From assembly GCA_020137815.1 (NCBI GenBank), contig CM035350.1:8432001-8496000 (forward strand): a DNA stretch of 64,000 bases, given 5' to 3'. This document shows, piece after piece, positions 12,463 to 64,000 of the stretch (its first letter is position 1; each line of letters opens with the position of its first letter). A program made the position numbers and the translations under genes. Below the pieces are notes generated by a model. It was not told where the DNA came from. It made no database searches and saw only the letters and a program-made list of their open reading frames with translations. This DNA comes from Hormiphora californensis (Eukaryota > Animalia > Ctenophora).

Positions 12463-12488
12463 AATGTCGTCAGCTTCACTGCTACCAC

Positions 12489-12803
12489 TGTCAATATGAT
12501 GTTGGGAAGGTGGACGAATGGAAACACGGTAGATAACGGGTGGTTAACAAAATAGACGGATCAGGTAGTACAACGTTAAGGTAGTTCGATATTGGGAATC
12601 TGACAAAGTGCTTGTCAACTTAAAACTCATTCGATCTTCACAAGAAGCACGTGCGCGCACTTGAAAGGTGCATTTCAAGTGCGTGCACAAAAGTGTCACA
12701 TACTAATGATCAGTTCGCGCGTTACGTCCGGTAGGCGGTAACAACTGCGACAGTGTGTCCCACGGAACAATACACTCAATCTCATGACACACAGCTCATG
12801 ACA
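12489..12803 (-). repeat. 5' LTR
   Basis: Direct repeat of 7535-7849. Confidence 0.95.
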
Positions 12804-16630: not shown

Positions 16631-16994
16631 TCTCTCATGTTTTCTACTGAGGCACTAAGTAATTAATATTCTATGTATGGCAGCTGTTAGAAGCCCATTG
16701 TACTACAAACTCTCATATATAAAGCACAGTCGTGAGAGTCTATTAAAACTAATAATTATGTTTTTTGTTGATGGTTGTTAATCAGAACTAGAATTTGAAG
16801 CCTACATTGTATGCATCCCTTGACTTAGATCACTGTTCTAAAAAGAAAGTTTCATAACTTGATGATGTTGATTTGATAACCACATATTCCTCCCTCTGTA
16901 GAACTAGGTAACCCTGGCGGGTCATGTGGTATCAGACGACGCTTTCAGTACTCAGCTCACCCCGGCAGCATCTCACGACCAAGAGGATCTCAGC

Positions 16995-18764
16995 ATGACA
17001 ACCACAACGGGCATAATCGCTCCCTCATCGGGCAAGCCAAAAAAGTCCAAATCACGGTTGGAGAAACTCTCCGTAGTTCCCCTCAAGTTATGGGTTGTCT
17101 TGGTAGTTATCCTAACGGTAGCACTCGTTTGTGTCATGTCTTTCATAATGGTTGCTGTCCTGAGGGAGGAGAAGCCTGAGGTGGAAACCAAACTAGGCAG
17201 GATACGGGGCAGGTTGGCCGTTACAAAAAGCGGAAAAGAGGTCCGGGAGTTCCTGCACTTGTCATATGCGGAATACCCGCCTGTGGGGGAGAGACGGTGG
17301 ACGCACAGCGAAGTAAAAACTAAGGGTTGGAACGGTACCCTTCATGCGGATGTGTTGGATGACAGTCTGAAGTGTTCCCAACCTGGGGATCCTGTAGCTG
17401 GACAGGAGGACTGTCTCTACCTGTCAGTTAGGGCCCCTGAGGTACACGATGATGATGAAGTGTTGCCTGTTATAGTGTGGATCCATGGGGGTGGGTTACA
17501 GTGGGGGTTCAGTGATGATCCAGGATACTCAGCTGATGCAGAGTTTACAGAGGCAGTTGATGCCATCACGGTGAATATAAATTACAGGTTGGACCTCCTT
17601 GGCTTCCTCTCTAGACCCGAGATATGGAAGGACAACAAACACTACGGGAATTTCGGCATTGGAGATGCCATAACTGCCCTTCATTGGGTGAAAAACAACA
17701 TTGCTTCCTTTGGAGGGGATCCCAGTAGGGTGACAATAGTTGGGGAGAGCTCGGGTGGTACAATAGTTCTAGCCCTTGTCACATCGCCCCTTGCACAGGG
17801 ATTGTTCTCCGCTGCATTCGCCATGTCGGCGGTACCTCTATGGAAATCCAATTATATCACCGCCAACCAGAGGAGACCTGATTTTATGGAGCAGGCTAAA
17901 TGTGCGGCAAACGCCACCAGTGCCTGTCTCAGGGCGACAGCTGTGGAAAACCTGATCAACTCAAGTAACATTGAGAGCCGTGGCTGGGGCTTCTACGATT
18001 TCCCTCTCACTGATGGGTGGCGGGGTGAGAGCATGGACTATAACGTCCAGGAGCCCACCATCTTGCCTTATCTACCTCAGGATATTCCGGATCAGATCAC
18101 CCATGGTCAGGAGATGGTTCGGGTTGTGGTTAGTAACACGGCTCAGGAGGCAGGCTACTGGTGGCTATCTGATAATGGTAACCTGGTTACGACTTGGCAG
18201 GATGCCAGAGAGTTGCTAGAGGACCGATTGGAGAAGTTCTTGGGAACGGAAAATGTTACTAGTATGGTGGATAAAATTGCCGCAAATTACTCCTTCGGTG
18301 TTGATAGTGATGATTGGTGGCCCCAAATGGCATGGGACACCCTCATAACGGACATCAGGGCAACATGCCCCTTTAATGATCTCGTTCCCGAGATCAACAG
18401 GAGCCCTAACCATGAGGTACACAGAGTATACATAGAACACCGGGCCAGTCAGGAGCTATCGGCCAACGGTAACTGGACCTCCTGGCACGGATGGGACACG
18501 GAGGCAATGTTTGGCTTTCAATACTTTGCGGGGAGTCTCTACGACCCGGACAACGTCCAGGATCATGATATTTCCTTCCAGTTGGAACTACTTGAAATGG
18601 TACGAGCCTTGGTGCACGGTGAGACAGACACTTGGCGGGCTGATGAGACCCGCTATCTCACCAACCACAGACCATGGCTCAAGGTGAGCAGCAGGAAACC
18701 ACGGGAAGAACAATGTGCCTTCTTGTGGCAGGAAAACTTTGAAGGGTGGGGCTGGCAAAACTGA
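16995..18764 (+). CDS. Type-B carboxylesterase (alpha/beta hydrolase) with N-terminal signal-anchor; CDS without introns; start uncertain (first ATG at 16995)
   Basis: EDCLYL, WIHGGG oxyanion loop, NYRL, FGGDP, GESSGG nucleophile elbow, candidate catalytic E (NTAQE) and H (WHGWD); basic stretch followed by hydrophobic LWVVLVVILTVALVCVMSFIMVAVL. Confidence 0.92.
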   Translation: MTTTTGIIAPSSGKPKKSKSRLEKLSVVPLKLWVVLVVILTVALVCVMSFIMVAVLREEKPEVETKLGRIRGRLAVTKSGKEVREFLHLSYAEYPPVGERRWTHSEVKTKGWNGTLHADVLDDSLKCSQPGDPVAGQEDCLYLSVRAPEVHDDDEVLPVIVWIHGGGLQWGFSDDPGYSADAEFTEAVDAITVNINYRLDLLGFLSRPEIWKDNKHYGNFGIGDAITALHWVKNNIASFGGDPSRVTIVGESSGGTIVLALVTSPLAQGLFSAAFAMSAVPLWKSNYITANQRRPDFMEQAKCAANATSACLRATAVENLINSSNIESRGWGFYDFPLTDGWRGESMDYNVQEPTILPYLPQDIPDQITHGQEMVRVVVSNTAQEAGYWWLSDNGNLVTTWQDARELLEDRLEKFLGTENVTSMVDKIAANYSFGVDSDDWWPQMAWDTLITDIRATCPFNDLVPEINRSPNHEVHRVYIEHRASQELSANGNWTSWHGWDTEAMFGFQYFAGSLYDPDNVQDHDISFQLELLEMVRALVHGETDTWRADETRYLTNHRPWLKVSSRKPREEQCAFLWQENFEGWGWQN

Positions 18765-19693: not shown

Positions 19694-25013
<5,320 letters not shown>

Positions 25014-38819: not shown

Positions 38820-40276
38820 CTAGTAGGGATGGTACCGGTGGGATGGGTGATGGGATCTAGGGGCTGATGATTCAGGACCCGTACTAGAGGACAGCTGATT
38901 ACTCTGGACGGGCATTAAATGTGGTCCTCCTGATCCGGCTAATGAGAAATCGTTCTTCAACTGTCTCTCCTCGTACTCACGCAGCTTAGCTCGAACCGTT
39001 TTATCTTCCTGCTAGGGCCAGTAATAAGGAACGTGTGTTAAACTTAAATCATGATCAGCTAGTGGGGAAGTTCTGAAGTAAAAGGAGGTAGTTGGGAAGG
39101 GGCTGATAGACAGTTAATTTCTTGATTGCTATTGTCGGAACAACAGAGATAAGTAGATGAGATGGATAGGGCAAGGGCGATGGATAGGGGAAGGGGAGGG
39201 GGCGATGGATAGGGCAGGGGGCGGTGGATAATAGACTCACATCTGCAAGATCATAATCGAACTCTAGTCGGGCAACTCCATCCAATCGCTTGATGTCTAT
39301 CCATCCCTTTAGTTGAACACAGACCCCGTTCATTATGAATCTACTCTTTAAAACTACCTGAAGTGGGTGGGAAAGTGAGAGAATGATAAATGTTGTCCTT
39401 ATACAACTAGAAGATAGGGAGGTGAGTTGTTTACAACTAGTCAAGCATGTCTTGTGACGAATATAGCGGTTATAGGGAGGTAGAAGTGTGAAGCGGCCGA
39501 TTGCAAAGTGTGCCCCCTACCTTTGACGGGTCCTTTTCAAAGTCAACGTATTCCTTTGAGACCTTCTCCGTGGGTCCGGTGGGAGGCCAAAACTGAAGCA
39601 TCAGATTTACCCCCGTGTTCAGGAACGCCTAGTCACAAAGGAGAGAGATTCGTGAGCGGTGCATGATGTTATAATAAGTGTGCTGGAGTTCAAAGGAGAT
39701 CTTTTACAACATGCTCATCTAGATTTACAAACACACGCCGTCTAATTAGAACGAACATGTCATTTACATACCACGCATGTGTGCCCCTCCTTGCAGTCAT
39801 TGATGAAGCGCTGTGATCTCTCATCAGGTGGCTTGTCTCGGTATGATGTTACCCTGATCTGAAATTAGAGAAGTGGTGAAATCTAGAGAATTAGAGAGTG
39901 GTCAGTGGTGTTGCGTGAAATATAGAAACTGTTTCATAGCACATTAAAACTTTAGTTTAGGAGAATTTGGGACGAACCTCTGAATCTTCGCTGAGTTTCC
40001 TAAATAGTTCATCGGTTTCAAACTTGTGACTCTGGTCTTGGACAACCCGCGGCATCAGCCCATATTGCAGCAACTAAGGGTACAGAGGTTAGGGGGTACA
40101 ACTACTAGACTCGAGAGTCGAGTAGTATAATAGTCAAGTCTGTTCTGTACTGTCATTGTGTTCATCACCTTCATTTCAAGATTTGTCAAGTTGGTCAGAT
40201 TAGTCCGCTGTCTCGGTCCGCCATTGGCAGCTGGTGCCTGCTGCTGCTGTTGTGTCTGTCGACTCACGTGGAACAT
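38820..40276 (-). CDS. CBFB: Core-binding factor beta (RUNX partner); canonical Met at 40055, possible upstream in-frame start at 40276
   Basis: MPRVVQDQSHKFETDELFRKLSEDSE|IRVTSYRDKPPDERSQRF..|AFLNTGVNLMLQF..EYVDFEKDPSK|VVLKSRFIMNGVCVQLKGWIDIKRLDGVARLEFD; ends HRYHPY*. Confidence 0.93.
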
Positions 40277-40811
40277 GGGGGCTGCTTCGTCAGCGGGATC
40301 CGCGGGAGGCCGGTGGTGGTGGTGGTGGTCCTGGTCTGGGTTAGGTGGGTAGTGCCGCAGCGCACCGCACGCCTCGCTCACTAGGGGGTGTGTTGCGACA
40401 ACCTAGAGCAGAGGACATGGTTATGGGATTATGGGTAGGAATATGGGGGACATGGCTATAGGATGAGTTGGGATATATTGGAGACATGGTTAATGGTTAT
40501 GGGATCAGCTGTAGGGGTATTATTATTGGGGTTTCATTTTGATCTACCGAATCCTCACGGAAATAAAATAACGGTGTTTATGGACTGAAATGCCAAATGG
40601 GTATCTCCGCCCTCCGGTAGTAGCAAAGATCTTTAGCTGCCAGGACCACACCAGCTCTCAACTACTACTTACCACGGTTGCGCTGATTGCTATGAACGAT
40701 GGGCGGGTAGGGTACTGAGTTTAAAGCCCGGCAGTGTTATTAGGAGGGCTGTCGAGCTTCCCTTTCTCGTTGTACCAAACTGCAGGCCGCTACTATCATG
40801 AGATCGGAGAG

Positions 40812-49850: not shown

Positions 49851-51443
49851 ATGAAATCCGTCCTTCTCGTGCTGTTCCTAATCCCCTGTGTGGCTGGTTC
49901 AGCCATCACAAAACACCAAGACGATGATGATCACCATGATAGAGAGTCTGAACACCACCATCATGACGGTGATATGATGTACCATGGACATGATGATGAT
50001 GATGATGACTACCATTTTGGGCATGATGATGATGATGATGATGATAATCACCAGCACCACGACAAAAAGAGGCACGCTGCTCAACACCAGGAGGCTGATC
50101 ACCATCACCACGACAAAAAGAGGCACGCTGCTCAACACCAGGAGGCTGATCACCAGCACCACGACAAAAAGAGGCACGCTGCTCAACACCAGGAGGCTGA
50201 TCACCAGCACCACGACAAAAAGAGGCACGCTGCTCAACACCAGGAGGCTGATCACCATCACCACGACAAAAAGAGGCACGCTGCTCAACACCAGGAGGAG
50301 GCTGATCACCAGCACCACGACAAAAAGAGGCACGCTGCTCAACACCAGGAGGCTGATCACCAGCACCACGACAAAAAGAGGCACGCTGCTCAACACCAGG
50401 AGGAGGCTGATCACCAGCACCACGACAAAAAGAGGCACGCTGCTCAACACCAGGAGGAGGCTGATCACCAGCACCACGACAAAAAGAGGCACGCTGCTCA
50501 ACACCAGGAGGAGGCTGATCACCAGCACCACGACAAAAAGAGGCACGCTGCTCAACACCAGGAGGCTGATCACCAGCACCACGACAAAAAGAGGCACGCT
50601 GCTCAACACCAGGAGGAGGCTGATCACCAGCACCACGACAAAAAGAGGCACGCTGCTCAACACCAGGAGGCTGATCACCAGCACCACGACAAAAAGAGGC
50701 ACGCTGCTCAACACCAGGAGGAGGCTGGTCACCAGCACCACGACAAAAAGAGGCACGCTGCTCAACACCAGGAGGCTGATCACCAGCACCACGACAAAAA
50801 GAGGCACGCTGCTCAACACCAGGAGGCTGATCACCAGCACCACGACAAAAAGAGGCACGCTGCTCAACACCAGGAGGAGGCTGATCACCAGCACCACGAC
50901 AAAAAGAGGCACGCTGCTCAACACCAGGAGGAGGCTGATCACCAGCACCACGACAAAAAGAGGCACGCTGCTCAACACCAGGAGGAGGCTGATCACCAGC
51001 ACCACGACACAAAGAGGCACGCTGCTCAACACCAGGAGGCTGATCACCAGCACCACGACAAAAAGAGGCACGCTGCTCAACACCAGGAGGAGGCTGATCA
51101 CCAGCACCACGACAAAAAGAGGCACGCTGCTCAACACCAGGAGGAGGCTGATCACCAGCACCACGACAAAAAGAGGCACGCTGCTCAACACCAGGAGGAG
51201 GCTGATCACCAGCACCACGACAAAAAGAGGCACGCTGCTCAACACCAGGAGGCTGATCACCAGCACCACGACAAAAAGAGGCACGCTGCTCAACACCAGG
51301 AGGCTGATCACCAGCACCACGACAAAAAGAGGCACGCTGCTCATCACCAGGAGGCTGATCACCAGCACCACGACAAAAAGAGGCACGCTGCTCAACACCA
51401 GGAAGCTGATCACCAGCACGAGAGAAAACACCACGATGACTAA
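49851..51443 (+). CDS. Secreted His/Asp-rich tandem-repeat polyprotein with dibasic cleavage sites, 530 aa, prohormone-like
   Basis: Signal peptide MKSVLLVLFLIPCVAG; acidic His-rich leader; 25 units HAAQHQE(E)ADHQHHD-K/TKR plus one terminal unit; 51/54-bp DNA repeats; acceptor cttcccttatag just before the ATG. Confidence 0.85.
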   Translation: MKSVLLVLFLIPCVAGSAITKHQDDDDHHDRESEHHHHDGDMMYHGHDDDDDDYHFGHDDDDDDDNHQHHDKKRHAAQHQEADHHHHDKKRHAAQHQEADHQHHDKKRHAAQHQEADHQHHDKKRHAAQHQEADHHHHDKKRHAAQHQEEADHQHHDKKRHAAQHQEADHQHHDKKRHAAQHQEEADHQHHDKKRHAAQHQEEADHQHHDKKRHAAQHQEEADHQHHDKKRHAAQHQEADHQHHDKKRHAAQHQEEADHQHHDKKRHAAQHQEADHQHHDKKRHAAQHQEEAGHQHHDKKRHAAQHQEADHQHHDKKRHAAQHQEADHQHHDKKRHAAQHQEEADHQHHDKKRHAAQHQEEADHQHHDKKRHAAQHQEEADHQHHDTKRHAAQHQEADHQHHDKKRHAAQHQEEADHQHHDKKRHAAQHQEEADHQHHDKKRHAAQHQEEADHQHHDKKRHAAQHQEADHQHHDKKRHAAQHQEADHQHHDKKRHAAHHQEADHQHHDKKRHAAQHQEADHQHERKHHDD

Positions 51444-51681: not shown

Positions 51682-53816
51682 TTAAGCTTTCAAGGAAAGC
51701 CCTCTTTTGATGCAACTTCTCAGTTCATCAACACCATTATAAAATGGCATTGGTTTTGTCTCTGTGTTAAAGTACACTCTCTGATTAAACCGGACCGATT
51801 TAGAGGGTGATATTGTTAGAGACCCCAACCCAGGTCGATATATCTGTTCTTCGTCTCCATCGACCGACTGAACAGATAAATCTAGAGGCTCCTCTTCTTG
51901 ATCCCCCTCTGGTGACTCTATCTCAGGGGACTTGACATTAGTGCTGCTGACCTCAGAGAATCCAGAGTCCGGGGTCGGGGTGTCAGGTTCTGGGTTAACC
52001 TTGAAATAGTTATCCACCTTCACCACAAACGGTTCTGCTGATGAATGCTTGGGAACAGTGCTCACCACTGCGCTGTGCTTCTTTCGTTTCCTAGGACGGA
52101 GAACTTTCGGTTGGGCTAGTTTAGAGATCCGATCGTGAATCTCCTGCTCCCGGATTAGCCGGACTTGTTTGACAAGTGGTATTGGAGGCTGGAAATCAAC
52201 TGCTTTGGGTGTGGCAGAGAGCAGAGGTTGTTGTTGGGGGGAGGGACTATCACGTGATCGAGTCTGGCCCATAATATCACGTGCTGTTAGGGTCCTCCGG
52301 AGCTCCTGGATCTTCTTAACTCTCTCAAACTGGACTCGAGGGCTGCCTCCTGGGCTTACTGGTCTGGGGATAGTAACAGAGAGTTTCTCTGAGCATTTTT
52401 TAGACATCTGTGATCTATGGAAACTAGGAACGGGAGGGGAAGGGTCGATACACCGCATCGATTTAGCTCGAACAGCACAGTTAGTTGGTAATTTAGGTGG
52501 AGAGACACCCTTTCTTTTAGTCCAGGATTTATACGCATTTTCAACTTTCTCTGAGCGACGTATTTCGGAGTATTTCCGTATTTCTGTCTCCAAAAGTTTC
52601 TTGTGCTCTGCGACCCACTTTCTTCTCTCTCGCTCCTCCTCTCTCTTCTTTTCGAACCACATCACGTTCTGCAGATACTTAGAGCACGCCGTATGTCCCC
52701 AAACCTGCGAAAAAATGGAGGATTAACGGTGGTTGTTCGTCAACCATGATCATGATCGATCATGAAAACAGAAATGGTGATTATTTTAGACGTTCTGAAC
52801 CATGATTTTCCCACGATCCGCGCGGAGTTGTGTGCTTTTATCACAGCAGCATACTCGCGCGCTCCGTATAACATCCCTCGGACCACAACAAGTCCGAGTC
52901 TGCTGCCTTCAGCAGAACCTCGCAGTAGATTGATTAAACTCGTGTGTATACTCATTTCAGGTACCTTGGAGACATCTAGTGGGAGGAGGCCACGTTTGTC
53001 AGTACACGTCACGCTCGCACCATGTTTCACTAGGCTGGTAAGACACTGAAGGTTGTTCGCTGATACTGCCTGGTGGACACTGCTGATACCCATATCGTTC
53101 ACTCTGTTGGGAGATGGTTGTGGTTAGGGAAATTTAGTCATCAGTGATCGTTATATTAGTTTCTGGATTTATACTGTGACTCGCAGTCTGTGAGTGTGAT
53201 TCTGGAAATTGATACGGTGATGGAGTGGACGGCGTTTCGGTGTTATTTGTGTTTGTGATAAATCATAAAAGGGAATTGATGCTTGTTGAAATTTTATAAT
53301 AACTCCACGCGATCGAGAACTGTATCGACACCGCCTTCCAGATATCAGTCATCAGATAATACGATCTACATGGCAATCATTTTAGGAGCTCTAGCTATTT
53401 TCCATTATCCACTTGTTCCGCAACATATACATTATGTACTCGTCCAAATCTCACCCCCCCCTATAATCTATGTCTGCCCCTCCCCTCATCCATATCTAGA
53501 CCCCCTGGCCTCTTCACGTCATATATCATATACCTGTTTACGTCAGCGCCATTCGAAAGCAAGTAATTAACGCAGTCGAGTGCAGCCGTCTCGGGGCGAG
53601 CTCTGCTTGCGAGATGAAGAGGGGTCCAACCTGCAATAAAGGTACATTCTTAAAGACATGCACAGAAAGGTCAGGGTCTGAATAGAAAATGAAATGGGAT
53701 ATTCGAGGTGTTACACCTAGAATCTAACGTGCTTGCCAGCATTTTACAGACCATACAGTATGTTGTATTACAATGTGGCCAAGCTGACACATGTAATGCA
53801 ATACCACGGCCTCCTA

Positions 53817-53867
<51 letters not shown>

Positions 53868-53872
53868 TCACT

Positions 53873-53905
<33 letters not shown>

Positions 53906-53907
53906 CC

Positions 53908-53953
<46 letters not shown>

Positions 53954-55561
53954 GTCTCCATGCTTCTCTCTCTCACTATCTCCCCCTCTATCTCTAGCTC
54001 AGAGGTTGCGGTATGCCTCCTGTATAACATATGTGTCTGTCGGTGTGACGGTGTACGTGCATCGTGCACACATGGGTTGGTTATTGTCAAATTAGTTTAG
54101 GAAAGAGATATTTCAAATGTTGCACAATCAATAATCAGACTCTACTAACTACTTCACACCCTAATTAACCTGTTTTATTCTGATGGTTCACGTCTATCTT
54201 CAGGTTCTCCACTAGGAATGCGATGCAATCCATCTTAGTGTTGGTAGCGGCCATGTGGAGAGCACTCCAACCCTGCAGAGAATCATGTTAGACATGTTAC
54301 AGCCCTGCAGAGAATCATGTTAGACATGTTACAGCCCTGTAGAGAATCATGTTAGACATGTTACAGCCCTCCAGAGAATCATGTTAGACATGTTACAGCC
54401 CTGCAGAGAATCATGTTAGACATGTTACAGCCCTGCAGAGAATCATGTTAGACATGTTACAGCCCTGCAGAGAATCATGTTAGACATGTTGCAACCCTGC
54501 AGAGAATCATGTTAGACATGTTACATCCCTCCAGAGAATCATGTTAGACATGTTACAGCCCTGCAGAGAATCATGTTAGACATGTTGCAACCCTGCAGAG
54601 AATCATGTTAGACATGTTACAGCCCTGCAGAGAATCATGTTAGACATGTTACAGCCCTGCAGAGAATCATGTTAGACATGTTACATCCCTCCAGAGAATC
54701 ATGTTAGACATGTTACAGCCCTGCAGAGAATCATGTTAGACATGTTGCAACCCTGCAGAGAATCATGTTAGACATGTTACAGCCCTGCAGAGAATCATGT
54801 TAGACATGTTACAGCCCTGCAGAGAATCATGTTAGACATGTTACAGCCCTGCAGAGAATCATGTTAGACATGTTACAGCCCTGCAGAGAATCATGTTAGA
54901 CATGTTACAGCCCTGCAGAGAATCATGTTAGACATGTTACTTTTTCATATATGTAATATTCGTGTTTAGTGTATTTCAAATAGGGTACTGGTATGGACTA
55001 CTGGGATTTGGATGTACATTGCTGCCACAAACAGATTCTTTAATTCAAATAAGCAGGGGAATTCAAATATGCAGGGGAATGCAGGGCGTGATGATCTCTC
55101 AGTTACATTTATTATTATAATATTATAATAGTTGTGTCCGAACTATGTCAGTCTGTGATCTGTCATGGTTGTTAGGGTATCGAATGATAAATGCTCTTAC
55201 AGAGCTCCAGCGAAATGAGTGAGAGGGGTTTGGTTGCTATGGCAACAAATTGTCTTCATAACACGCTGGATTCGGGGTAGAGGGAGGGCCAATGAGGTGA
55301 CCCCATTTGTATCACGTGACCCAGCTCTAACTCAGTTACACTCTTACTCCAGGAGGGAAATGGGGGTGCTGCAGACTTACCTGGATGAGGACAACTCTTC
55401 GACTAGAGATCAGCAACTAACTTGGATCAGAGATGAAGCATCAGCTGGAGAAAGGCACAAAGAACTAACAGAAAAGTGCAAGAGAAAAAGTGTCAAGTAT
55501 GTTTATATTGCTGCGACATGCAACTTTAGGCACCACACCATCCCTGGGACCTCTCTCTCTT

Positions 55562-55618
<57 letters not shown>

Positions 55619-56392
55619 CGCAAAACACGCGAGTATTATGCTTTAGTGGCACGTTGAGGTTCAATAATTTCAGTCGAGAATTATAACTAATACAGCCTAC
55701 TAGCTCAGCTTCAGTCGCAGAACAAGAATATCAAGTAGATAGAACAGAAAGTAGGTTCAAGAAAGTGGTGCCAGCACGGTAAAAAGAAGAGCAAGGAAAT
55801 AGCTAGTCAGAAGCGATAAAGAGGTGGACATCTATAGAAAAGAGTGAGAGAAAGAGAGAACATGATAAGTGAAAGAATATAGACATAGAGCAATAGAAAG
55901 CAGGACGAGAGGAAGAACAGAGCCGCTTAGAGAGAGAGAGAGAGAGAGAAGCTGAAAACGGTCAACTTGTGTTTTAAACGAGATAACGGGTTACTTATCC
56001 TTCTAAACCACACGCTACTTATCTACAACATGCTACAATATCGCGTACGGGCCCGCTTGTTTAATGATAATTGATATGTCAGTATGTTAACATGTCAACA
56101 TACTGACATATCAATTGGCAAGCTGCTAAAAATTAATATCGTGACAGAAATGATTAAATAAAACATGCCGACTAAGAAATGAAGATGGACGAGGGAGAAA
56201 GAGAGATAGAGAGAGGGGTAGTAAGTTACAAGTATCACATGAATATGAATAGAACGTGGTTTTACATTTTACAGACTATATGATTGGATTTACCTCATCA
56301 TTTAGGTAGTATGGGTCGGCTCCTTTTTTCAAGCACAGCTTAACCCATTCCACATCACCCACCGCACAGGCCACAAGTAGATCTTTACCCAT
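51682..56392 (-). CDS. ANKRD53: Ankyrin repeat protein 53-like; exons about 56392-56294, 54272-54169, 53631-53533, 53103-52964, 52704-51682
   Basis: LLVACAVGDVEWVKLCL..DE|GWSALHMAA..|GWTPLHLA..ALDCVNYLLSNGADVN|..PLDVSK|VWGHTACSKYLQNVMWFEKK matches the ANKRD53 layout. Confidence 0.85.
54271..54940 (-). repeat. 32-bp tandem array, 21 copies, each a complete 3' splice signal of ANKRD53 intron 1
   Basis: Minus-strand unit ctgtaacatgtCTAACatgattctctgcAG|gg; real exon starts at 54272. Confidence 0.95.
55233..55246. promoter_or_regulatory. Candidate RFX X-box in ANKRD53 intron 1
   Basis: GTTGCTATGGCAAC fits the X-box consensus. Confidence 0.4.
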
Positions 56393-56934: not shown

Positions 56935-57824
56935 CTGGCTCCATTATCTGACGCTGTTTCTTGGCTTGCACCTTAATCCACCGTGTAACTTTGCATAGAT
57001 GCTGCAGCAGTATCAGCTCCTCACAGAGCCTCTCCTTCCCGATGATCGGTCGATTGAAGCAAGTAGCAACGCCCCCACCACCAACAAGCCTTCTAAAGCG
57101 GCTCAATAATTCAACGTGCTAAAAGTTCCACATCCACCGCCATTATTAATCGTAGGTATAACAAAATAATCGAGACAGCTCCGCCAGACAGTTGTTATCT
57201 CTTTACTATACTTGTTATGTTCTAAGCCTCCTTTACATTTTATGAGGGTTGTGTGTTTTTGCGGAGCGCACGGGAAAAGGGTCGAGCTAATCTGAATCCT
57301 TTATACCTAAAATTTAGTTATTCTATACTTGAAGATCAATTATTTGAGTAAATTATGGTTGGTAAACCCCAAAAGTAGGTCAAAATTCGTTTGCATTTTT
57401 CATTTTTGTAAAAATTTAAAAAAAAGCAAAAAATGCAATTTTTGATTTTGTCGCCAAAATTGAAATTTTGATCGAACGCCGCGCTCGGCGCGTGATTTGC
57501 TCTATATTTGCGCGTCATCGATTGCGCGCGATCGAAATCCGTTGTGGTCGAAGTGTCGTATGTCGATTGCTTGCGGAGGAAAGATGGTTGCTATGTTTTC
57601 ACCATCGTCTTGGTAAAGCGTGTCAGTATCCTTGACGCAACTCTGTATACATTCTTGACAGTTCCAAACACCGCTATTACGATCGCGTACTCCGTTTAAA
57701 TCCTAGTTTGTTGTCTGCACTGATCTTTGAGTATTGCAACACAGCTTTTCTCTGATATCTCACTCACCAGATAAGTTTTATTCGAATATAAATTAAATCA
57801 ATATTCCTGGTTCGTTAGGTCAAG

Positions 57825-58415
57825 ATGTTTAAGAACACCTTCCAGTCTGGATTCCTCTCCATCTTGTACAGCATTGGAAGCAAGCCTCTGCAGATCTGGG
57901 ACAAGAAAGTTCGAAACGGCCACATCAAGAGGATAACGGATAACGACATCCAGTCTTTGGTGTTGGAAATCGTTGGAACCAATGTCAGCACCACATACAT
58001 TACCTGTCCTGCTGACCCAAAGATCACCCTGGGAATCAAGTTGCCCTTCCTTGTGATGATCATCAAAAACATGAAGAAATACTTCACCTTTGAGGTACAG
58101 GTCCTTGACGACAAGAACGTGAGGAGGCGATTCCGAGCATCCAACTACCAGTCCACAACCCGAGTGAAACCTTTCATCTGTACCATGCCCATGCGACTTG
58201 ACGATGGATGGAACCAGATCCAGTTTAACCTGTCAGATTTCACTCGACGAGCCTACGGAACGAACTACATTGAGACCCTCCGAGTGCAGATCCACGCCAA
58301 CTGCCGAATCAGGCGGGTCTACTTCTCTGACAGGCTCTACAGTGAGGACGAGCTTCCAGCAGAGTTCAAACTCTACCTGCCCGTGCAAAACAAGATGAAG
58401 GCTAACGCCAACTAA
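57825..58415 (+). CDS. CFAP20: Cilia- and flagella-associated protein 20 (BUG22), CDS without introns
   Basis: [44 protein letters not shown]...[18 protein letters not shown], near-invariant CFAP20. Confidence 0.99.
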
Positions 58416-58969
58416 AGGGACAATAATTCTGTTGTTTGTTGGACACTGTGTGTAATTTATGTTTTGCGCAGACAGAGAGGCCGGGCCGCACAGAACCTGA
58501 AGCTCTGAGAGTTTATCCGCGGTAGATTTTATCCTCCCAGCCTTCACAATCTTTGAAGATTTTTGAAGATTTTTTCCCTACCCTATATTCCACTCTAACA
58601 CGATATACCCATCCTTCCCTTCCAGCAATTCCTCCTAAGACTGGGACGGAGAGAGAGATTGATGTGAGAGAGAGATGTAAGGGCAATGCAAATACACATG
58701 TGTACCTTGTAGAGGTGGGATGTTTTTCTCGCGTTATATATCACTGTATACAATGTGTGTTGATTTTACTTGTAAATACCCCTCCCGGTATATCGGTGTT
58801 TTTATTTGCCTATACCATTTCATTGCCATCATTACATTCTCCCCAACCTGCTACCCCTCCTTCCCCCTATATCTATCTCCCTCTATCTCCCTTCCTCCCC
58901 CACCTCAATCTCCCTTCCCTCCCATACTCAGATTTTCACACTGACCAACACCCCCTCTCTCATTATAGG

Positions 58970-59875
58970 ATGTCTACTATGTTTGACACCTTCAAAGGAT
59001 CATTTGCCCGGCTCAGGGACTATGCCCTTGTTCCAGCCATTGCACTCCGTGGCTCTCTCGTCCTATGGTCCTCTCTCATCTGTCCCCTATTTCGGCCAGA
59101 AGAGGTTGGTGAGGTGGGTGAGTTATTCGTTCATCCCATTAGGGCCCTTCAGCCTGTTCAAGTTACCCCTGGTAACTCCTGGTTACTGACCCCCACTGGG
59201 TTCTGGTTGGATAAAAGGATGTGTATGTTGCACAATAATGAGAGGTTGAAACACACAACCAAGGGTTGGGAGGCCTTGTATGGGGTTGGGGTATCTCTAA
59301 CAGATGACACTGTCGTGCTCTCTCACGCCTCAAAACCGGACCTGGTGATCCCTCTCTCTGTACTGGATGGAGAGGGAGAGGCTCTCAAGTGTAGCAAGGG
59401 TAACTCCTATAGGACGGTACCGGGTGTCGGTGACTGGCTGACTGATGTGGTAGGGGGACGTGAAATAACACTGGTATACTCGCCTGAAGGTGCAGTTGTA
59501 CCCGGTCTGGATCCTGTCCTTATTATTGGACAGAATTCTCTGTCTGCGTTCGAGGAAATAGCTGGTCATACTATGGAAATGGAGAGGTTCAGGCCTAATA
59601 TAGTTGCTGTGGAGAAACAACCTTTTGCAGATGAGGGCTGGGCTGAGGTAAAGGTGGGGGAGGCAGTTCTTGTGTTTTGTCACCGCTGTACAAGGTGCTC
59701 CATCACTAACGTTTCACCAGAGGGAATTAGGACGGACTATACCATGGATAGTCTGAGGGAGAAAAGGCCGCGGTGCGAGAAGACAAACAAACCAGTCTTT
59801 GGATCTTATTTCAAGGTTAAGTGCCCGGGTCTGGTAAGGCCTGGTGACAAAATCATGCTAATTAAATCGCAATAA
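58970..59875 (+). CDS. MOSC-domain (mARC-like) molybdoprotein, 301 aa, no introns; true start at ATG 58970 rather than the 58553 ORF start
   Basis: LFVHPIRA (MOSC_N), LDKRM, ERFRPNIV, FADEGW, CTRCSITNV, FGSY..V..PG.VRPGD; acceptor ctctctcattatag right before the ATG. Confidence 0.88.
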   Translation: MSTMFDTFKGSFARLRDYALVPAIALRGSLVLWSSLICPLFRPEEVGEVGELFVHPIRALQPVQVTPGNSWLLTPTGFWLDKRMCMLHNNERLKHTTKGWEALYGVGVSLTDDTVVLSHASKPDLVIPLSVLDGEGEALKCSKGNSYRTVPGVGDWLTDVVGGREITLVYSPEGAVVPGLDPVLIIGQNSLSAFEEIAGHTMEMERFRPNIVAVEKQPFADEGWAEVKVGEAVLVFCHRCTRCSITNVSPEGIRTDYTMDSLREKRPRCEKTNKPVFGSYFKVKCPGLVRPGDKIMLIKSQ

Positions 59876-60063
59876 TTCGGGTACTAGCTTTATTTTATAT
59901 CTTTTTCCCCTTTTCTTTTTTCCGGGTTTTGTCATTCTGTTTTAATAATTGACTTATTTTAATTCTCTCTGTTCTTTACCCACTGTCTATATCTCCCTTT
60001 CCTCCCCACTCCTCCCACACAGTTCCCCTTTCCTTATATATACATTTCCCCCTTATAGCACTC

Positions 60064-60372
60064 ATGTCTAAGACGATCCACAACCCCGGTAACTCTGTCT
60101 ACACGTGTGCTAACGTGACTAACGTGGATCTAAAAAGTGAATATCAGACGATCGATGGGAACCTGAAGGATGTTGTCAAGGGTTACCCTGCCGAGGAACA
60201 ACATCCAATGTACCGGACTAGTAGCCACAAGTATGGCAGTCTGGGTCCATGTCACCACACCCTGCCCCAGAAGTTTCTGGGAATTTCCAGCAAGTTCTCG
60301 GAACATTTGAACAAGAGTGGAATGTATCGAAACCAGAGTCTCAATACCAGCATGGATAAGGATAAATGTTGA
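60064..60372 (+). CDS. Piercer of microtubule wall protein (PIERCE1/2, C9orf116/C15orf65 family), no introns
   Basis: NPGNSVYTC, HPMYRTSSHKYGS, KFSEHLNKSGMYRNQSLNTSMD. Confidence 0.9.
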   Translation: MSKTIHNPGNSVYTCANVTNVDLKSEYQTIDGNLKDVVKGYPAEEQHPMYRTSSHKYGSLGPCHHTLPQKFLGISSKFSEHLNKSGMYRNQSLNTSMDKDKC

Positions 60373-60798
60373 AGAAATCCAGGGACATATTGACATCTAG
60401 ATCTTTGAGCTGAGTTTGATTATTTATTTGTTCTGAGAGAGTGCTGGGAAATAGAGTTCTGTTGCACGCGAAAAAATGCGATATTGTTGATTTTTACCGT
60501 GTAATTGTAGTGCGTTGAAAGATTGTACAGATTTTAATTGAGCCTTTCTATCTTTTTCTCTCCGTCATCATGCACATGTGTGCGTTACCATGGTTCTCAA
60601 GTAACTCTCTTTCTCCTCGTGGGTCGTCCCCCCCCTCTCTCTCTCTCTCCCTCTCTCTCCCTCGTCCCCTCTCTCCCCAGCCTCCTCCCCCTCTCTCTAT
60701 AATCCTCCCTCTCTGCAATCCTCCCCTCTAGCACCTCTATCCCCCCTCTCTCTCTCCAGTCCCCTCCCTCTCGATAGTCATCCCTCTTCCCCTCTAGC

Positions 60799-63700
60799 AT
60801 GGCGTACAGTGTAGAGGAAGAAGAGGGACCCAAATGCTCCTTCGCTATCTACCTTGCAGAGGGAGATGCCCTGGCGAAACAAGGTGATTTTGTTAAGGCC
60901 ATCCGAGCTTATTCAACAGCACTCGATATTCAACCAGAGGACAAGAACTGTCTTGTAAACAGGTAAATATATGGGGGGGGGGGGGGGTGTGGAGGGATAG
61001 GAAGAACTGTATTGGGACTAGCGTGAGTGGTGTATAGTTAATTGGGCCCCAGTTAATTAGGGCCAGATAGTCATCTCTATCTAGACAACGTGTATAAGTG
61101 AGCCATTTAACAAGGAACTCATTGTTGTGTTGCTAGGAGAAAAGTTTGAATTGTTGGCCTTGAATTTGGTTGCCATAGCAACCCATAAATAGGCTGCAAA
61201 GTATCACTTTACATCCTTTCTACCCCCTCTCTTTCCAGGTCTCGATGTCACCTGAAACTTGGTGATGCTGAGTCTGCCCTCAAGGACGCTGAGACAAGTC
61301 TGAAGGAGGGAAACGACTTTTGTAAGGGGCTCTTTCAAAAAGCGGAAGCCCTTTATGCGATGGGAGATTTCGAGTTTGCGTTGGTGCACTATCACAGGGG
61401 CAACAAGTTGCGGCCAGAATTGGATGAGTTCAGACTGGGAATCCAGAAGGCCCGAGAAGCTATCGACAACTCTATCGGCAGTAAGTAACGTGTTCCCTCT
61501 GTTGTGTGTGTAACATTATGCTCGGCTGTGTGTAAGTACATTTTATACACATTCTTCAACATCCCCCTCATATTGCCATGTTTCACAACACTTCCCCCTT
61601 ACACCACTCTCCTTATCCTAGCCCCCACACATCTGGTTATGTTCTAACCCTCCTTCACTGCCCCTTACAGTACAGTATCCCCCCATTATCCCCTCCTTCC
61701 CTTCCCAGACCCTAACAGTACATTATCCCCTCCTTCCCTTCCCAGATCCTAACAGTACATTATCCCCTCCTTCCCTTCACAGACCCTAACAGTACATTAT
61801 CTCTCTCCTTCCCTTCCCAGACCCTAACAGTACATTATCCCCTCCTTCCCTTCACAGACCCTAACAGACCATTATCCCCTCCTCCCCTTCCCAGATCCTA
61901 ACAGTACATTATCCCCCCCCCCTTCCCTTCCCAGACCCTAACAGTACATTATCCCCTCCTTCCCTTCCCAGACCCTAACACGGTTAAGTTGACATCAAAA
62001 GGAGACCTGTCCTATTTCTACAAGTATCTGGACGACAAAGCGGGCAAGAAAGGTAAACCCGCCACCCGTAAGAAGCCTGTCAACAGGGCTCCCTTTAGTT
62101 CTCTGAACACTGAAAAACAGGACACAAAATGTGTGACGGGAGATAAAACAGTAAAACAGCTGTTGGGAGAGCTATACGAGGACCGGGAGTACTTGGAAAA
62201 ACTGCTGAACGATTCCCGTGAGTTAAATAGAGTTCTATTTGAACCGGTACCCCGGCTTTCGCAAAAAAATAGAGTGCGGTTATTTCTGTTTCAATGTTGT
62301 GTGTTAACTGTTTATAGCCCAACTCTAAACTTACAATTAAGTGTTTGTTGAAGGTGCGACAAAGCAGTCAGATAACACGATAAAGTCCCTGGTGTCAAAC
62401 GGAATTACCTATCTGGATTCCCGGTTGGATTTCTGGAGGCAACAACAGCCCCTGTACAGCCGGAAGAAGAAGAGGATTGATGTTGGAAACAAGAATCGTC
62501 TGATCAAAGGATATCCTTTTAGTCGAGAATACACATTCAACACATTCGCAACAGAAGAGATTCTCACAGAGTCATCAGTCATCACAAACCACGCAGTCCC
62601 CTCACCCGTCATTGAATAACTACACTATCACATCACGAGATTTTAGCAACAACAAAAAACACTTTTTTAAATACCCGTTTGACTCCTTAACTCTTATTTT
62701 CCGTCTGCACGATTGGGAGTGATCCGACAGCATACGTTTTACGGAATTTGGACGAGATTGATGCAGGTAAGATATTCTCCCTGACTCTACACGTAAATTG
62801 TGTAGCACTCCAATCAGGCACATTTTCAGTCTGAGCTCCGCGCGCTTTCTCAGCGATGAAAGTAGTCGCTGTAAGCAGTTTGACTGCGCGCGTTGTGGTT
62901 CTGTTTTCCCCAGGAGCATCTCCTTGGTTACCATGTGTTTGTTGCCACCACTGCAAATAACAACATCCCTCAGCGCTGGCAGACGGTAATGCACAGGACA
63001 GTCTACAGTTGGCGAGGGGGTGTCTGAAGAAGGTTAAACAGATTGATAACCTGCCAAACAAACAGGAGTTTGTAGCGAATCTTCACTCAAGCATTGGATG
63101 TGCTTTACTTGAGTTGGGCAGTTATGATGCTGCACTTTCAGAACACAAGGAAGACCTTTCTATCAGCAATTCAATGTAAGTCGTAAGATTGTTAGGGCAT
63201 GTGTCTAGAGGGGGCTATGTCTAGCAGCTCTCTCGGGTTTAAAATGTGTAGTGTAGTGCTGCAGTGAAAGAAACAACATTCTCCTCTAGTAAATCTGACG
63301 AGGGCAAGGCAAGGGCACTGGACAACATTGGTAGAACATATGCCAGGGTTTCTGATTACGGAGAGGCTATCAAATAGTAAGTTACAGTTCCGATATACCT
63401 GTTGTTAGAATTTCCCTGGATCTCAAAACATGTAAAATGCACCACCCCTTGCCAAACACTCAGAGCGAGTATAGAGTTCTAACAACCATCTTCTTCCCCA
63501 GCTGGGAACAAAGGATTCCAATGAATAGGACACTCCTTGAGTCAGCATGGTTATTCCACGAACTGGGTCGGTGCTGCCTCGAACTGGGAAAGTTTGCTGA
63601 TGCATCCTCTTACGGGGAACAATCTCTAGATGCTGCCTCTCAGGCTTCTGATGAGAACTGGCAGATCAACTCATCTGTCCTTATTGCTCAAGCTGAGGGT

Positions 63701-63914
63701 AGGTTTTCTTTGGATTTTATAATTTCACCAAAATTGCCTTGACGATATCACTACTCTCTAACCCCCTCCACTCCCTTAGTGAAGCTGTGTCATGACTCAA
63801 AGGCCCTTGAGAACTTCAACAGAGCCTTGAAGATTGCCGAGGTTTTGGGAGACAAAGCTATCCAGGAAGCTATTTCTAAAGCTATCCAGGATGTTAACTA
63901 TCGTATTGCCGAAG
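60799..63914 (+). CDS. ODAD4: Outer dynein arm docking complex subunit 4 (TTC25), TPR protein, continues past the window end
   Basis: FAIYLAEGD..DKNCLVNR|SRCHLKLGD..KAEALYAMGDFEFALVHYHRGNKLRPELDEFRLGIQKAREAIDNSIG; QLLGELYEDREYLEKLL; FWRQQQPLYSR; WLFHELGRC. Confidence 0.95.
61169..61182. promoter_or_regulatory. Candidate RFX X-box in TTC25 intron 1
   Basis: GTTGCCATAGCAAC. Confidence 0.45.
61684..61980 (+). repeat. About 37-bp tandem array, 8 copies, duplicating a TTC25 acceptor plus the first 9 exon nt
   Basis: Unit cattatcccctccttcccttcccAG|accctaacagta; in-frame exon starts at 61972. Confidence 0.92.
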
Positions 63915-64000
63915 GTATGGGATGCAGCTAGTAAAACCTAGCACATTTTCTTGATATAGCACCCTCTGATTGTTGCATCTATTGATCAAAACTACTTGAA

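What the first reader, a model, noticed from the sequence alone, without database searches (positions are those of the whole stretch)
57805..60962. Operon-like cluster of motile-cilium genes: CFAP20 - MOSC - PIERCE - TTC25/ODAD4
Seen: four same-strand genes with stop-to-ATG gaps of about 550, 190 and 430 bp. The first three CDSs have no introns. Every ATG lies 1-6 nt after a pyrimidine tract and AG (cgttag|gtcaagATG, cattatag|gATG, cccttatag|cactcATG, ccctctag|cATG). The 190-bp MOSC-PIERCE gap is T-rich then C-rich and leaves little room for a 3' UTR, promoter and UTR exon. Known: CFAP20 forms the doublet inner junction, and PIERCE proteins cross the microtubule wall and contact the outer-dynein-arm docking complex that contains TTC25; operons resolved by SL trans-splicing occur in nematodes and tunicates, and ctenophores trans-splice. 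Inference: a polycistronic unit co-expressing physically linked axonemal parts, and a hint that the MOSC protein has a ciliary role.
Basis: partly seen in the sequence, partly recalled or inferred. Interest (0 to 1): 0.82.

Follow-up and report, generated by a model that had tools for sequence, protein, structure and literature searches.

The report
Comb-jelly cilia genes, likely operon
In a comb jelly, three genes for parts of the beating cilium and one enzyme gene sit head to tail, two of their messages carry a leader spliced on from elsewhere, and part of the cluster is kept in distant comb jellies, so the genes are likely read as one long transcript that is then cut up, which would make this an operon.

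Summary
The four genes are real and lie as described: CFAP20, a mARC-like MOSC enzyme, PIERCE and ODAD4/TTC25, in a Pleurobrachia (ctenophore) genome. Public RNA contigs show a non-genomic leader joined at the predicted AG of CFAP20 (2 studies) and before PIERCE (3 studies). Most of these leaders match the published ctenophore spliced leader. A lobate MOSC orthologue carries one too. The spacers are at most 130-260 nt, pyrimidine-rich and CpG-poor, and the window's strongest CpG peak lies just upstream of CFAP20. MOSC and PIERCE are neighbours in Mnemiopsis and probably in further ctenophores; ODAD4 shares their record in Bolinopsis.

Co-transcription itself is not shown. Most ctenophore mRNAs get the leader anyway, the 5' ends of MOSC and ODAD4 were not covered, CFAP20 linkage in relatives is untested, and X-box motifs hint at a separate ODAD4 promoter. 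Nothing supports a ciliary role for MOSC.

Verdict: a likely SL-resolved operon (about 0.55 for three or more genes), a known kind of system with unusually good support for this phylum. The scan noted similar clusters in three other genomes, without RNA proof, but not this cluster.

The parts
57400..57750 (.). CpG-rich segment, predicted promoter of the unit (possibly shared with the divergent ankyrin-repeat gene); half X-box at 57587
   Evidence: 28 CpG in 300 bp, the highest in the window, median 9; half site. Function inferred.
57817..57818 (+). Trans-splice acceptor AG of CFAP20
   Evidence: Contigs of X1 and X4 start at 57817 with 22 and 26 loose 5' letters; X1's match the published ctenophore leader
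57825..58415 (+). CFAP20 CDS, 196 aa, intronless; 3' UTR covered to 58720-58737
   Evidence: Pfam CFA20_dom E 4e-95; contigs
58738..58966 (+). Spacer 1, at most about 230 nt, T-rich then C-rich, 2 CpG
58967..58968 (+). Predicted trans-splice acceptor AG of the MOSC gene
   Evidence: Sequence; not covered by RNA here; orthologue L001 has a leader 9 nt before its ATG
58970..59875 (+). MOSC/mARC-like enzyme CDS, 301 aa, intronless; 3' UTR covered to 59892-59926
   Evidence: Pfam MOSC and MOSC_N; 98% to P. bachei P007053; human mARC1 E 8.5e-22
59927..60056 (+). Spacer 2, at most about 130 nt, 77% pyrimidine, 0 CpG, 7 G, no donor-like GT
60057..60058 (+). Trans-splice acceptor AG of PIERCE
   Evidence: Contigs of X1 and X8 start at 60057 with leader letters; a relative (X22) has the leader end further upstream of the ATG
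60064..60372 (+). PIERCE CDS, 102 aa, intronless; poly(A) tail at 60537
   Evidence: Pfam PIRC1_2; PDB Pierce1 E 4.7e-18; A18 loose end in X4
60538..60795 (+). Spacer 3, 258 nt, C-rich, 6 CpG; half X-box at 60584 and donor-like GT at 60601
60796..60797 (+). Predicted acceptor AG of ODAD4 (trans or cis not determined)
   Evidence: Sequence; not covered by RNA
60799..63919 (+). ODAD4/TTC25, multi-exon, running towards the window end; intron 1 60963-61238 spliced in RNA
   Evidence: joint in X3 and X4
61169..61182 (.). Perfect palindromic X-box (RFX-type consensus, recalled) in ODAD4 intron 1
   Evidence: 7 matches in the window with up to 1 mismatch, 0.13 expected

Best explanation
CFAP20, MOSC and PIERCE (and possibly ODAD4) are likely transcribed as one precursor from a predicted promoter at about 57400-57750; CFAP20 and PIERCE mRNAs receive a spliced leader at the AG just before their start codons, which would cut that precursor into separate capped messages. 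Shown: gene identities and layout, leader addition at CFAP20 and PIERCE, a poly(A) end of PIERCE, leader addition on a lobate MOSC orthologue, and MOSC-PIERCE adjacency in Mnemiopsis. Inferred: the single promoter, read-through across the spacers, and coupling of each 3' end to the next trans-splice through the T-rich then C-rich spacer. ODAD4 may be the last cistron or may have an internal RFX-driven promoter (hybrid operon). MOSC is most likely a passenger enzyme that depends on the upstream promoter.
For: Leader joined at 57817 (X1, X4; studies P1, P3), at 60057 (X1, X8; P1, P7) and before PIERCE in X22 (P13). X1's leader is identical over the last 24 nt to the Hormiphora leader (PMC8527503). 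No copy of that leader lies in the 64-kb window. RNA covers MOSC to 59926, leaving at most about 130 nt with 0 CpG and no donor before the PIERCE acceptor. The single strongest CpG peak lies upstream of the first gene. Mnemiopsis MOSC and PIERCE are ACHWQZ_G008491 and G008492; Bolinopsis MOSC, PIERCE and ODAD4 share one 26,206,493-bp record. 9 of 11 PIERCE records of 3 kb or more, and 4 of 7 ODAD4 records, have exactly the length of a MOSC record, among them records of 3871 and 4012 bp. Colinear blocks between Hormiphora and Mnemiopsis reach only four genes.
Against: At least 56% of Hormiphora long reads carry the leader, and a seemingly solo gene in the window has the same acceptor layout, so a leader does not prove an operon. 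X1 puts the same leader on the first gene and on a downstream gene, so no operon-specific leader marks the unit. A half X-box at 60584, a donor-like GT at 60601 and a perfect X-box at 61169 suggest that ODAD4 has its own control. The CpG peak could be a loop anchor or the promoter of the divergent ankyrin gene; CpG richness is not a validated promoter mark here. Loop architecture alone can conserve gene linkage in ctenophores. The spacers are longer than typical tunicate ones (cut-offs 60-84 bp) and than the roughly 100-bp C. elegans median. Shared record length is an indirect sign of linkage and gives neither order nor strand.
Confidence: 0.55

Rival explanations
1. Only a two-gene core (most likely MOSC-PIERCE) is co-transcribed; CFAP20 and ODAD4 are separately transcribed, trans-spliced neighbours.
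For: MOSC-PIERCE has the shortest spacer (at most about 130 nt) and the best-kept linkage (9 of 11 records). ODAD4 has X-box motifs nearby. CFAP20 linkage in relatives could not be tested.
Against: Spacer 1 has 2 CpG, only a weak donor-like GT (58772) and no X-box, so no MOSC promoter is evident. ODAD4 shares records with MOSC in 4 of 7 cases.
Confidence: 0.2
2. All four genes are monocistronic. Each has its own promoter, inside a spacer or inside the upstream gene, and a short outron replaced by the leader. The cluster is kept by shared enhancers or chromatin loops.
For: Leader use is near-universal in ctenophores; a Bolinopsis mikado comb-plate gene also shows the leader end just before its ATG (morpholino sequence). 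Genes inside loops keep linkage across ctenophores. With 2-5% axonemal genes assumed among 15,000, 0.06-0.9 same-strand runs with three of four such genes are expected per genome by chance.
Against: A PIERCE promoter plus outron would have to fit into at most about 130 nt of almost G-free sequence or overlap MOSC. No spacer has a CpG peak.
Confidence: 0.2
3. The leader is cis-spliced from a distant genomic leader copy that acts as a shared first exon.
For: Hormiphora has 718 genomic leader copies, and clusters that appear to share a 5' exon.
Against: No copy within 3 mismatches lies in the window. Two different leaders join the CFAP20 acceptor. An opposite-strand gene lies directly upstream. 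The paper's authors read the shared exons as a possible mapping artefact of trans-splicing.
Confidence: 0.05

Closest known systems
Hydra RFC140-flp bicistronic operon (PMC3273482)
   Same: Non-bilaterian animal; the downstream gene depends on SL addition at an AG behind a polypyrimidine tract; unrelated genes share one unit.
   Different: That operon was shown by reporters and acceptor mutation; this one is inferred. It has two genes; here there are up to four, three of them axonemal, with linkage kept across ctenophore orders.
SL-resolved operons without leader specialisation: chaetognath Paraspadella (PMC12460157), tunicates Ciona and Oikopleura (PMC7986045)
   Same: The same leaders serve solo and operon genes, so operons are called by SL plus short spacing. 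The chaetognath cut-off is 250 bp, which spacers 1 and 2 meet and spacer 3 (258 nt) just misses.
   Different: Tunicate spacers are 0-60 nt. Chaetognath operon genes are mostly metabolic, not parts of one organelle.
Nematode SL2 operons (C. elegans; PMC7986045)
   Same: 3' end, a spacer of about 100 nt, then a trans-splice site.
   Different: No SL2-like dedicated leader is seen here: X1 has the same leader on CFAP20 and PIERCE. The spacers are longer and C-rich.
Ctenophore SL trans-splicing (PMC8527503; Derelle et al. 2010 as cited there)
   Same: Same leader sequence and the same AG-adjacent gene starts.
   Different: That paper's main text does not use the words operon or polycistron. I recall, unverified, that the 2014 P. 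bachei genome paper mentions operon-like regions; it was not held.
mARC1/2 (MOSC-family molybdenum enzymes)
   Same: MOSC_N plus MOSC domains; the RFRPN-type motif; the Arg-Cys pair aligns with human mARC1 CSRC; moderately hydrophobic N-terminus.
   Different: A divergent clade whose named members are all ctenophores (about 50% between orders); substrate and location untested.

Membership tests
SL-resolved metazoan operon | Adjacent same-strand genes with short distance from 3' end to next acceptor | tested here: met
   At most about 230, at most about 130, and 258 nt
SL-resolved metazoan operon | Downstream genes receive a spliced leader | tested here: inconclusive
   Met for PIERCE (3 of 8 runs laid) and for a MOSC orthologue. 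The MOSC and ODAD4 5' ends of this genome were covered by none of the 8 runs.
SL-resolved metazoan operon | One promoter; spacers have no promoter activity | tested here: inconclusive
   Only sequence proxies: CpG peak upstream, CpG-poor spacers, but X-box motifs near ODAD4
SL-resolved metazoan operon | Polycistronic precursor RNA exists | not testable with these tools
   Only assembled contigs of mature RNA were offered; no raw, nascent or long reads
Nematode SL2-type operon | Dedicated leader for downstream genes | tested here: not met
   Run X1 shows the same leader on CFAP20 and PIERCE. The sample is tiny; a second leader type was seen once, on CFAP20 in X4.
CFAP20 | Full-length CFA20 domain | tested here: met
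   PF05018 1-184 of 185, E 4e-95
PIERCE1/2 | PIRC1_2 domain with the conserved C-terminal segment | tested here: met
   PF14892 E 6e-22; Pierce1 chains are the best PDB matches
ODAD4/TTC25 | Best matches are ODAD4 over the TPR body | tested here: met
   relative P0061 against a solved ODAD4 chain, E 2e-133
mARC-type MOSC enzyme | MOSC_N plus MOSC with the cofactor-binding cysteine | tested here: met
   Arg-Cys kept in all 13 aligned sequences and aligned to mARC1; its role as the molybdenum ligand is recalled
mARC-type MOSC enzyme | N-terminal membrane anchor, mitochondrial outer membrane location | tested here: inconclusive
   Best 19-residue hydropathy is 1.72 in this protein and 0.5-1.4 in 6 other orthologues or relatives (1.73 in the P. 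bachei copy)
Axonemal protein (for MOSC) | Present in a cilium proteome or restricted to ciliated cells | not testable with these tools
   The comb-plate proteome is in jPOST, which could not be reached. None of the four genes is in a comb-row versus aboral-organ list, which compares two ciliated tissues.

The most novel reading that the evidence does not exclude
All four genes form one SL-resolved operon that has been kept across cydippid and lobate ctenophores (about 180 million years by PMC12221973). It co-transcribes an inner-junction protein, a wall-piercing linker and a dynein-docking subunit of the same doublet microtubule: a functionally coherent organelle-building operon in the sister group of all other animals, possibly one of several ciliary operons that supply comb plates.
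Probability: 0.3. Interest if true: 0.78.

Novelty: new member of a known kind. Interest (0 to 1): 0.57.

Why it matters
Ctenophores are known to trans-splice most mRNAs, but in the papers I could read no ctenophore operon is described or tested. This locus gives a concrete, conserved, easily assayed case with the leader junctions already mapped. If confirmed, it adds operons to the lineage sister to other animals, offers one cause for the few gene blocks that survive ctenophore genome shuffling, and provides a short spacer usable for two-gene expression in ctenophore transgenics, as the Hydra operon did. Three of its four genes build the same axonemal doublet, which is unusual for animal operons, but chance can give such a run.

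Tried and rejected
- No whole genome is held, so genome-wide spacing and leader statistics could not be computed.
- 8 of 22 listed runs were laid. None covered the MOSC or ODAD4 5' end and no listed contig bridged two genes. Contigs cannot show absence and tables were cut (10 loose ends and 103 pieces not shown), so I count this neither way. Contig depth was not used to rank genes. No DNA run was laid, so the CFAP20 and MOSC contig ends are lower bounds for their 3' ends.
- The JGI scan gave 52 loci; only 1 (L001) was a ctenophore orthologue, a 1.3-kb transcript with no neighbours.
- CFAP20 linkage in relatives was not tested: its cluster has 803 members, of which 15 were listed.
- Horizontal transfer of MOSC into the operon (as for Hydra flp) was considered. 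After 7 close or unnamed hits, the next named ones are animal MOSC proteins (arachnid, nematode), mixed with prokaryote-sized ones. No tree was built, and the Mnemiopsis HGT paper does not mention MOSC, so it is not supported.
- There is no AATAAA in 57800-61000 (41 on the + strand of the window); this is too weak to use.
- Rfam finds only two tRNAs in the window, no SL RNA.
- Supplement searches for gene identifiers gave nothing useful. Supplements of PMC8527503 and of the bioRxiv preprint could not be seen and may bear on operon calls and on MOSC in the comb-plate proteome.
- The ESM Atlas gave no result.
- No complex prediction was run, since no direct binding is claimed.
Full report
1. Observation. 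The layout is as described. Four + strand genes start at 57825, 58970, 60064 and 60799, with stop-to-start gaps of 554, 188 and 426 nt; the first three are single open frames. Pfam gives CFA20_dom (E 4e-95), MOSC with MOSC_N, and PIRC1_2 (E 6e-22). Exon 2 of the fourth gene is 90% identical to Bolinopsis ODAD4 and 84% to fish ODAD4. A 502-aa relative maps over 60799-63919 and matches a solved ODAD4 chain at E 2e-133. Each ATG follows an AG by 1-6 nt. Only 132 of 2092 ATG triplets in the window have such a site, but another gene in the window (49851) has it too, so it is a habit of this genome rather than a mark of the cluster.

2. Organism. The MOSC protein is 98% identical to a Pleurobrachia bachei protein, and the PIERCE cluster also holds a P. 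bachei protein. The window is from a Pleurobrachia, a cydippid ctenophore. No whole genome is held.

3. RNA evidence. Of 22 listed runs I laid 8, all as assembled contigs. In X1 (study P1) a contig covers 57817-58720 with 6 other letters and 8 gap letters, and another covers 60057-60401 with 4 other letters. Both begin exactly at the predicted AG and carry 22 and 25 loose 5' letters. With the AG, their last 24 nt are identical to the end of the Hormiphora spliced leader printed in PMC8527503 (passages). X8 (P7) has the leader at 60057 with one change. X22 (P13), a relative at under 90% identity, has the leader end a short way before the PIERCE ATG. X4 (P3) has a different 26-letter leader at 57817; that Pleurobrachia has several leader types is recalled, not checked. 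So a leader was seen at CFAP20 in 2 of the 4 runs laid over that site, and at PIERCE in 3 of 8, with some table rows not shown. No copy of the main leader lies in the window within 3 mismatches, and the best match to the second type has 4 mismatches in 19. X4 shows a poly(A) tail at 60537, where the genome is not A-rich. X3 and X4 confirm ODAD4 intron 1. A JGI transcript, L001, 97% identical in protein to Bolinopsis MOSC, starts with a leader variant 9 nt before its ATG. The MOSC and ODAD4 5' ends of this genome were not covered.

4. Spacers and promoter proxies. RNA covers CFAP20 to 58737 and MOSC to 59926, which leaves at most about 230 and 130 nt before the next acceptors; PIERCE's poly(A) site is 258 nt from the ODAD4 acceptor. 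The spacers are T-rich then C-rich and hold 2, 0 and 6 CpG, whereas 57450-57750 holds 28, the highest 300-bp count in the window (median 9). Against a single unit: X-box-like palindromes (consensus recalled) are enriched in the window (7 found, 0.13 expected). One perfect copy is in ODAD4 intron 1 (61169), and a half site (60584) precedes a donor-like GT (60601) in spacer 3. A half site also lies in the upstream CpG segment (57587). An ankyrin-repeat gene starts on the other strand at about 56392, so the CpG segment may be bidirectional. GC-rich motifs also mark loop anchors in ctenophores (PMC12221973, section 9).

5. Conservation. Mnemiopsis MOSC and PIERCE carry consecutive tags, ACHWQZ_G008491 and G008492, on one record. 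Bolinopsis MOSC, PIERCE and ODAD4 share a 26,206,493-bp record, and two of the accessions are four numbers apart. Among listed cluster members (at most 15 per cluster), 9 of 11 PIERCE records of 3 kb or more, and 4 of 7 such ODAD4 records, have exactly the length of a MOSC record. These include records of 3871 and 4012 bp and two records of a more distant MOSC clade. This is indirect and gives no order or strand. It stands out because the largest Hormiphora-Mnemiopsis colinear blocks hold four genes, across about 180 million years. CFAP20 linkage was not testable.

6. Mechanism. The most likely reading (0.55) is transcription from the upstream promoter through at least CFAP20, MOSC and PIERCE, with each message cleaved and polyadenylated and the next one capped by leader addition 130-260 nt downstream. 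Leader addition is shown for two genes; the shared precursor is inferred. The rivals are a two-gene core only (0.2), four separate trans-spliced genes held together by shared regulation (0.2), and cis-splicing from a distant leader copy (0.05). A leader alone cannot decide, because at least 56% of Hormiphora long reads carry it and X1 shows one leader on both first and downstream genes.

7. Function. In mammals Pierce proteins cross the microtubule wall and bind the CCDC114/151 coiled coil, which TTC25 bridges (PMC8595878, passages), so PIERCE and ODAD4 belong to one module without touching directly. CFAP20's inner-junction role is recalled. With 2-5% axonemal genes assumed among 15,000, 0.06-0.9 same-strand runs with three of four axonemal genes are expected per genome, so the theme is suggestive, not proof of selection. 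MOSC keeps the mARC motifs, including the Arg-Cys pair, and has a moderately hydrophobic N-terminus. I put a direct ciliary role at about 0.1.

8. Known systems and novelty. It works like the SL-resolved operons of Hydra (PMC3273482, abstract and section 7), chaetognaths (PMC12460157, passages) and tunicates (PMC7986045, passages). It lacks the dedicated leader of nematode SL2 operons. Six full-text searches (listings only) showed no paper whose title or abstract opening describes a ctenophore operon, and the word operon occurs 0 times in the main text of three ctenophore genome or chromatin papers. The 2014 P. bachei genome paper and Derelle et al. 2010 were not held. I recall that the former mentions operon-like regions, so ctenophore operons may already have been proposed. 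I found no mention of this cluster. The scan's own notes hold three similar clusters in other genomes without RNA proof and nothing on this DNA.

9. Verdict. Observation confirmed; trans-splicing shown for two genes; operon likely but unproven; ciliary MOSC unsupported. New member of a known kind, interest 0.57.

Noticed in passing
window 51682-56392, minus strand: Multi-exon ankyrin-repeat gene divergent from CFAP20, followed on the same strand by a frame with a weak CCDC34-like match. It resembles ANKRD53 from recall only. A perfect X-box lies inside it at 55233.
   Followed up: partly
window 61690-61980: ODAD4 intron 2 holds a tandem repeat of about 41 bp whose units copy the 3' splice site and the first bases of exon 3; RNA in X1, X4 and X8 joins exon 2 to the last copy.
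   Followed up: partly
window 49851-51443: Intronless 530-aa protein with a signal-peptide-like start and His/Gln/Asp-rich tandem repeats; no Pfam match; acceptor 3 nt before its ATG.
   Followed up: no
window 57817 (run X4): A second, different 26-letter leader type on CFAP20; a full-text search for it found no paper.
   Followed up: partly
PMC11184263 Table S2: DNAH12 and LRRC74A are neighbours in both Beroe (0009.g74, g75) and Mnemiopsis (ML329912a, ML329911a) and both are comb-row enriched: another candidate conserved ciliary pair.
   Followed up: no
P0064, P0214: Bolinopsis ODAD4 (P0064) and an unnamed member of its cluster (P0214) carry a 350-410-residue Pro/Ala/Thr/Lys-rich repeat tail that the 502-aa relative P0061 lacks.
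   Followed up: no
records of 7399 and 7280 bp: Two MOSC paralogues appear on the same small record as PIERCE in one unnamed relative, suggesting a tandem duplication inside the cluster.
   Followed up: no
window 8143-12543 (minus), 16908-18764 (plus), 22469-22711, 39055-40402 (minus): An intact 1466-aa retrotransposon-like frame, an intronless carboxylesterase, two identical-scoring tRNA genes, and a CBF-beta exon.
   Followed up: no
window 15031, 32146, 32175, 33205, 47250: Further X-box-like palindromes, two of them at CpG peaks (15031, 33205).
   Followed up: no
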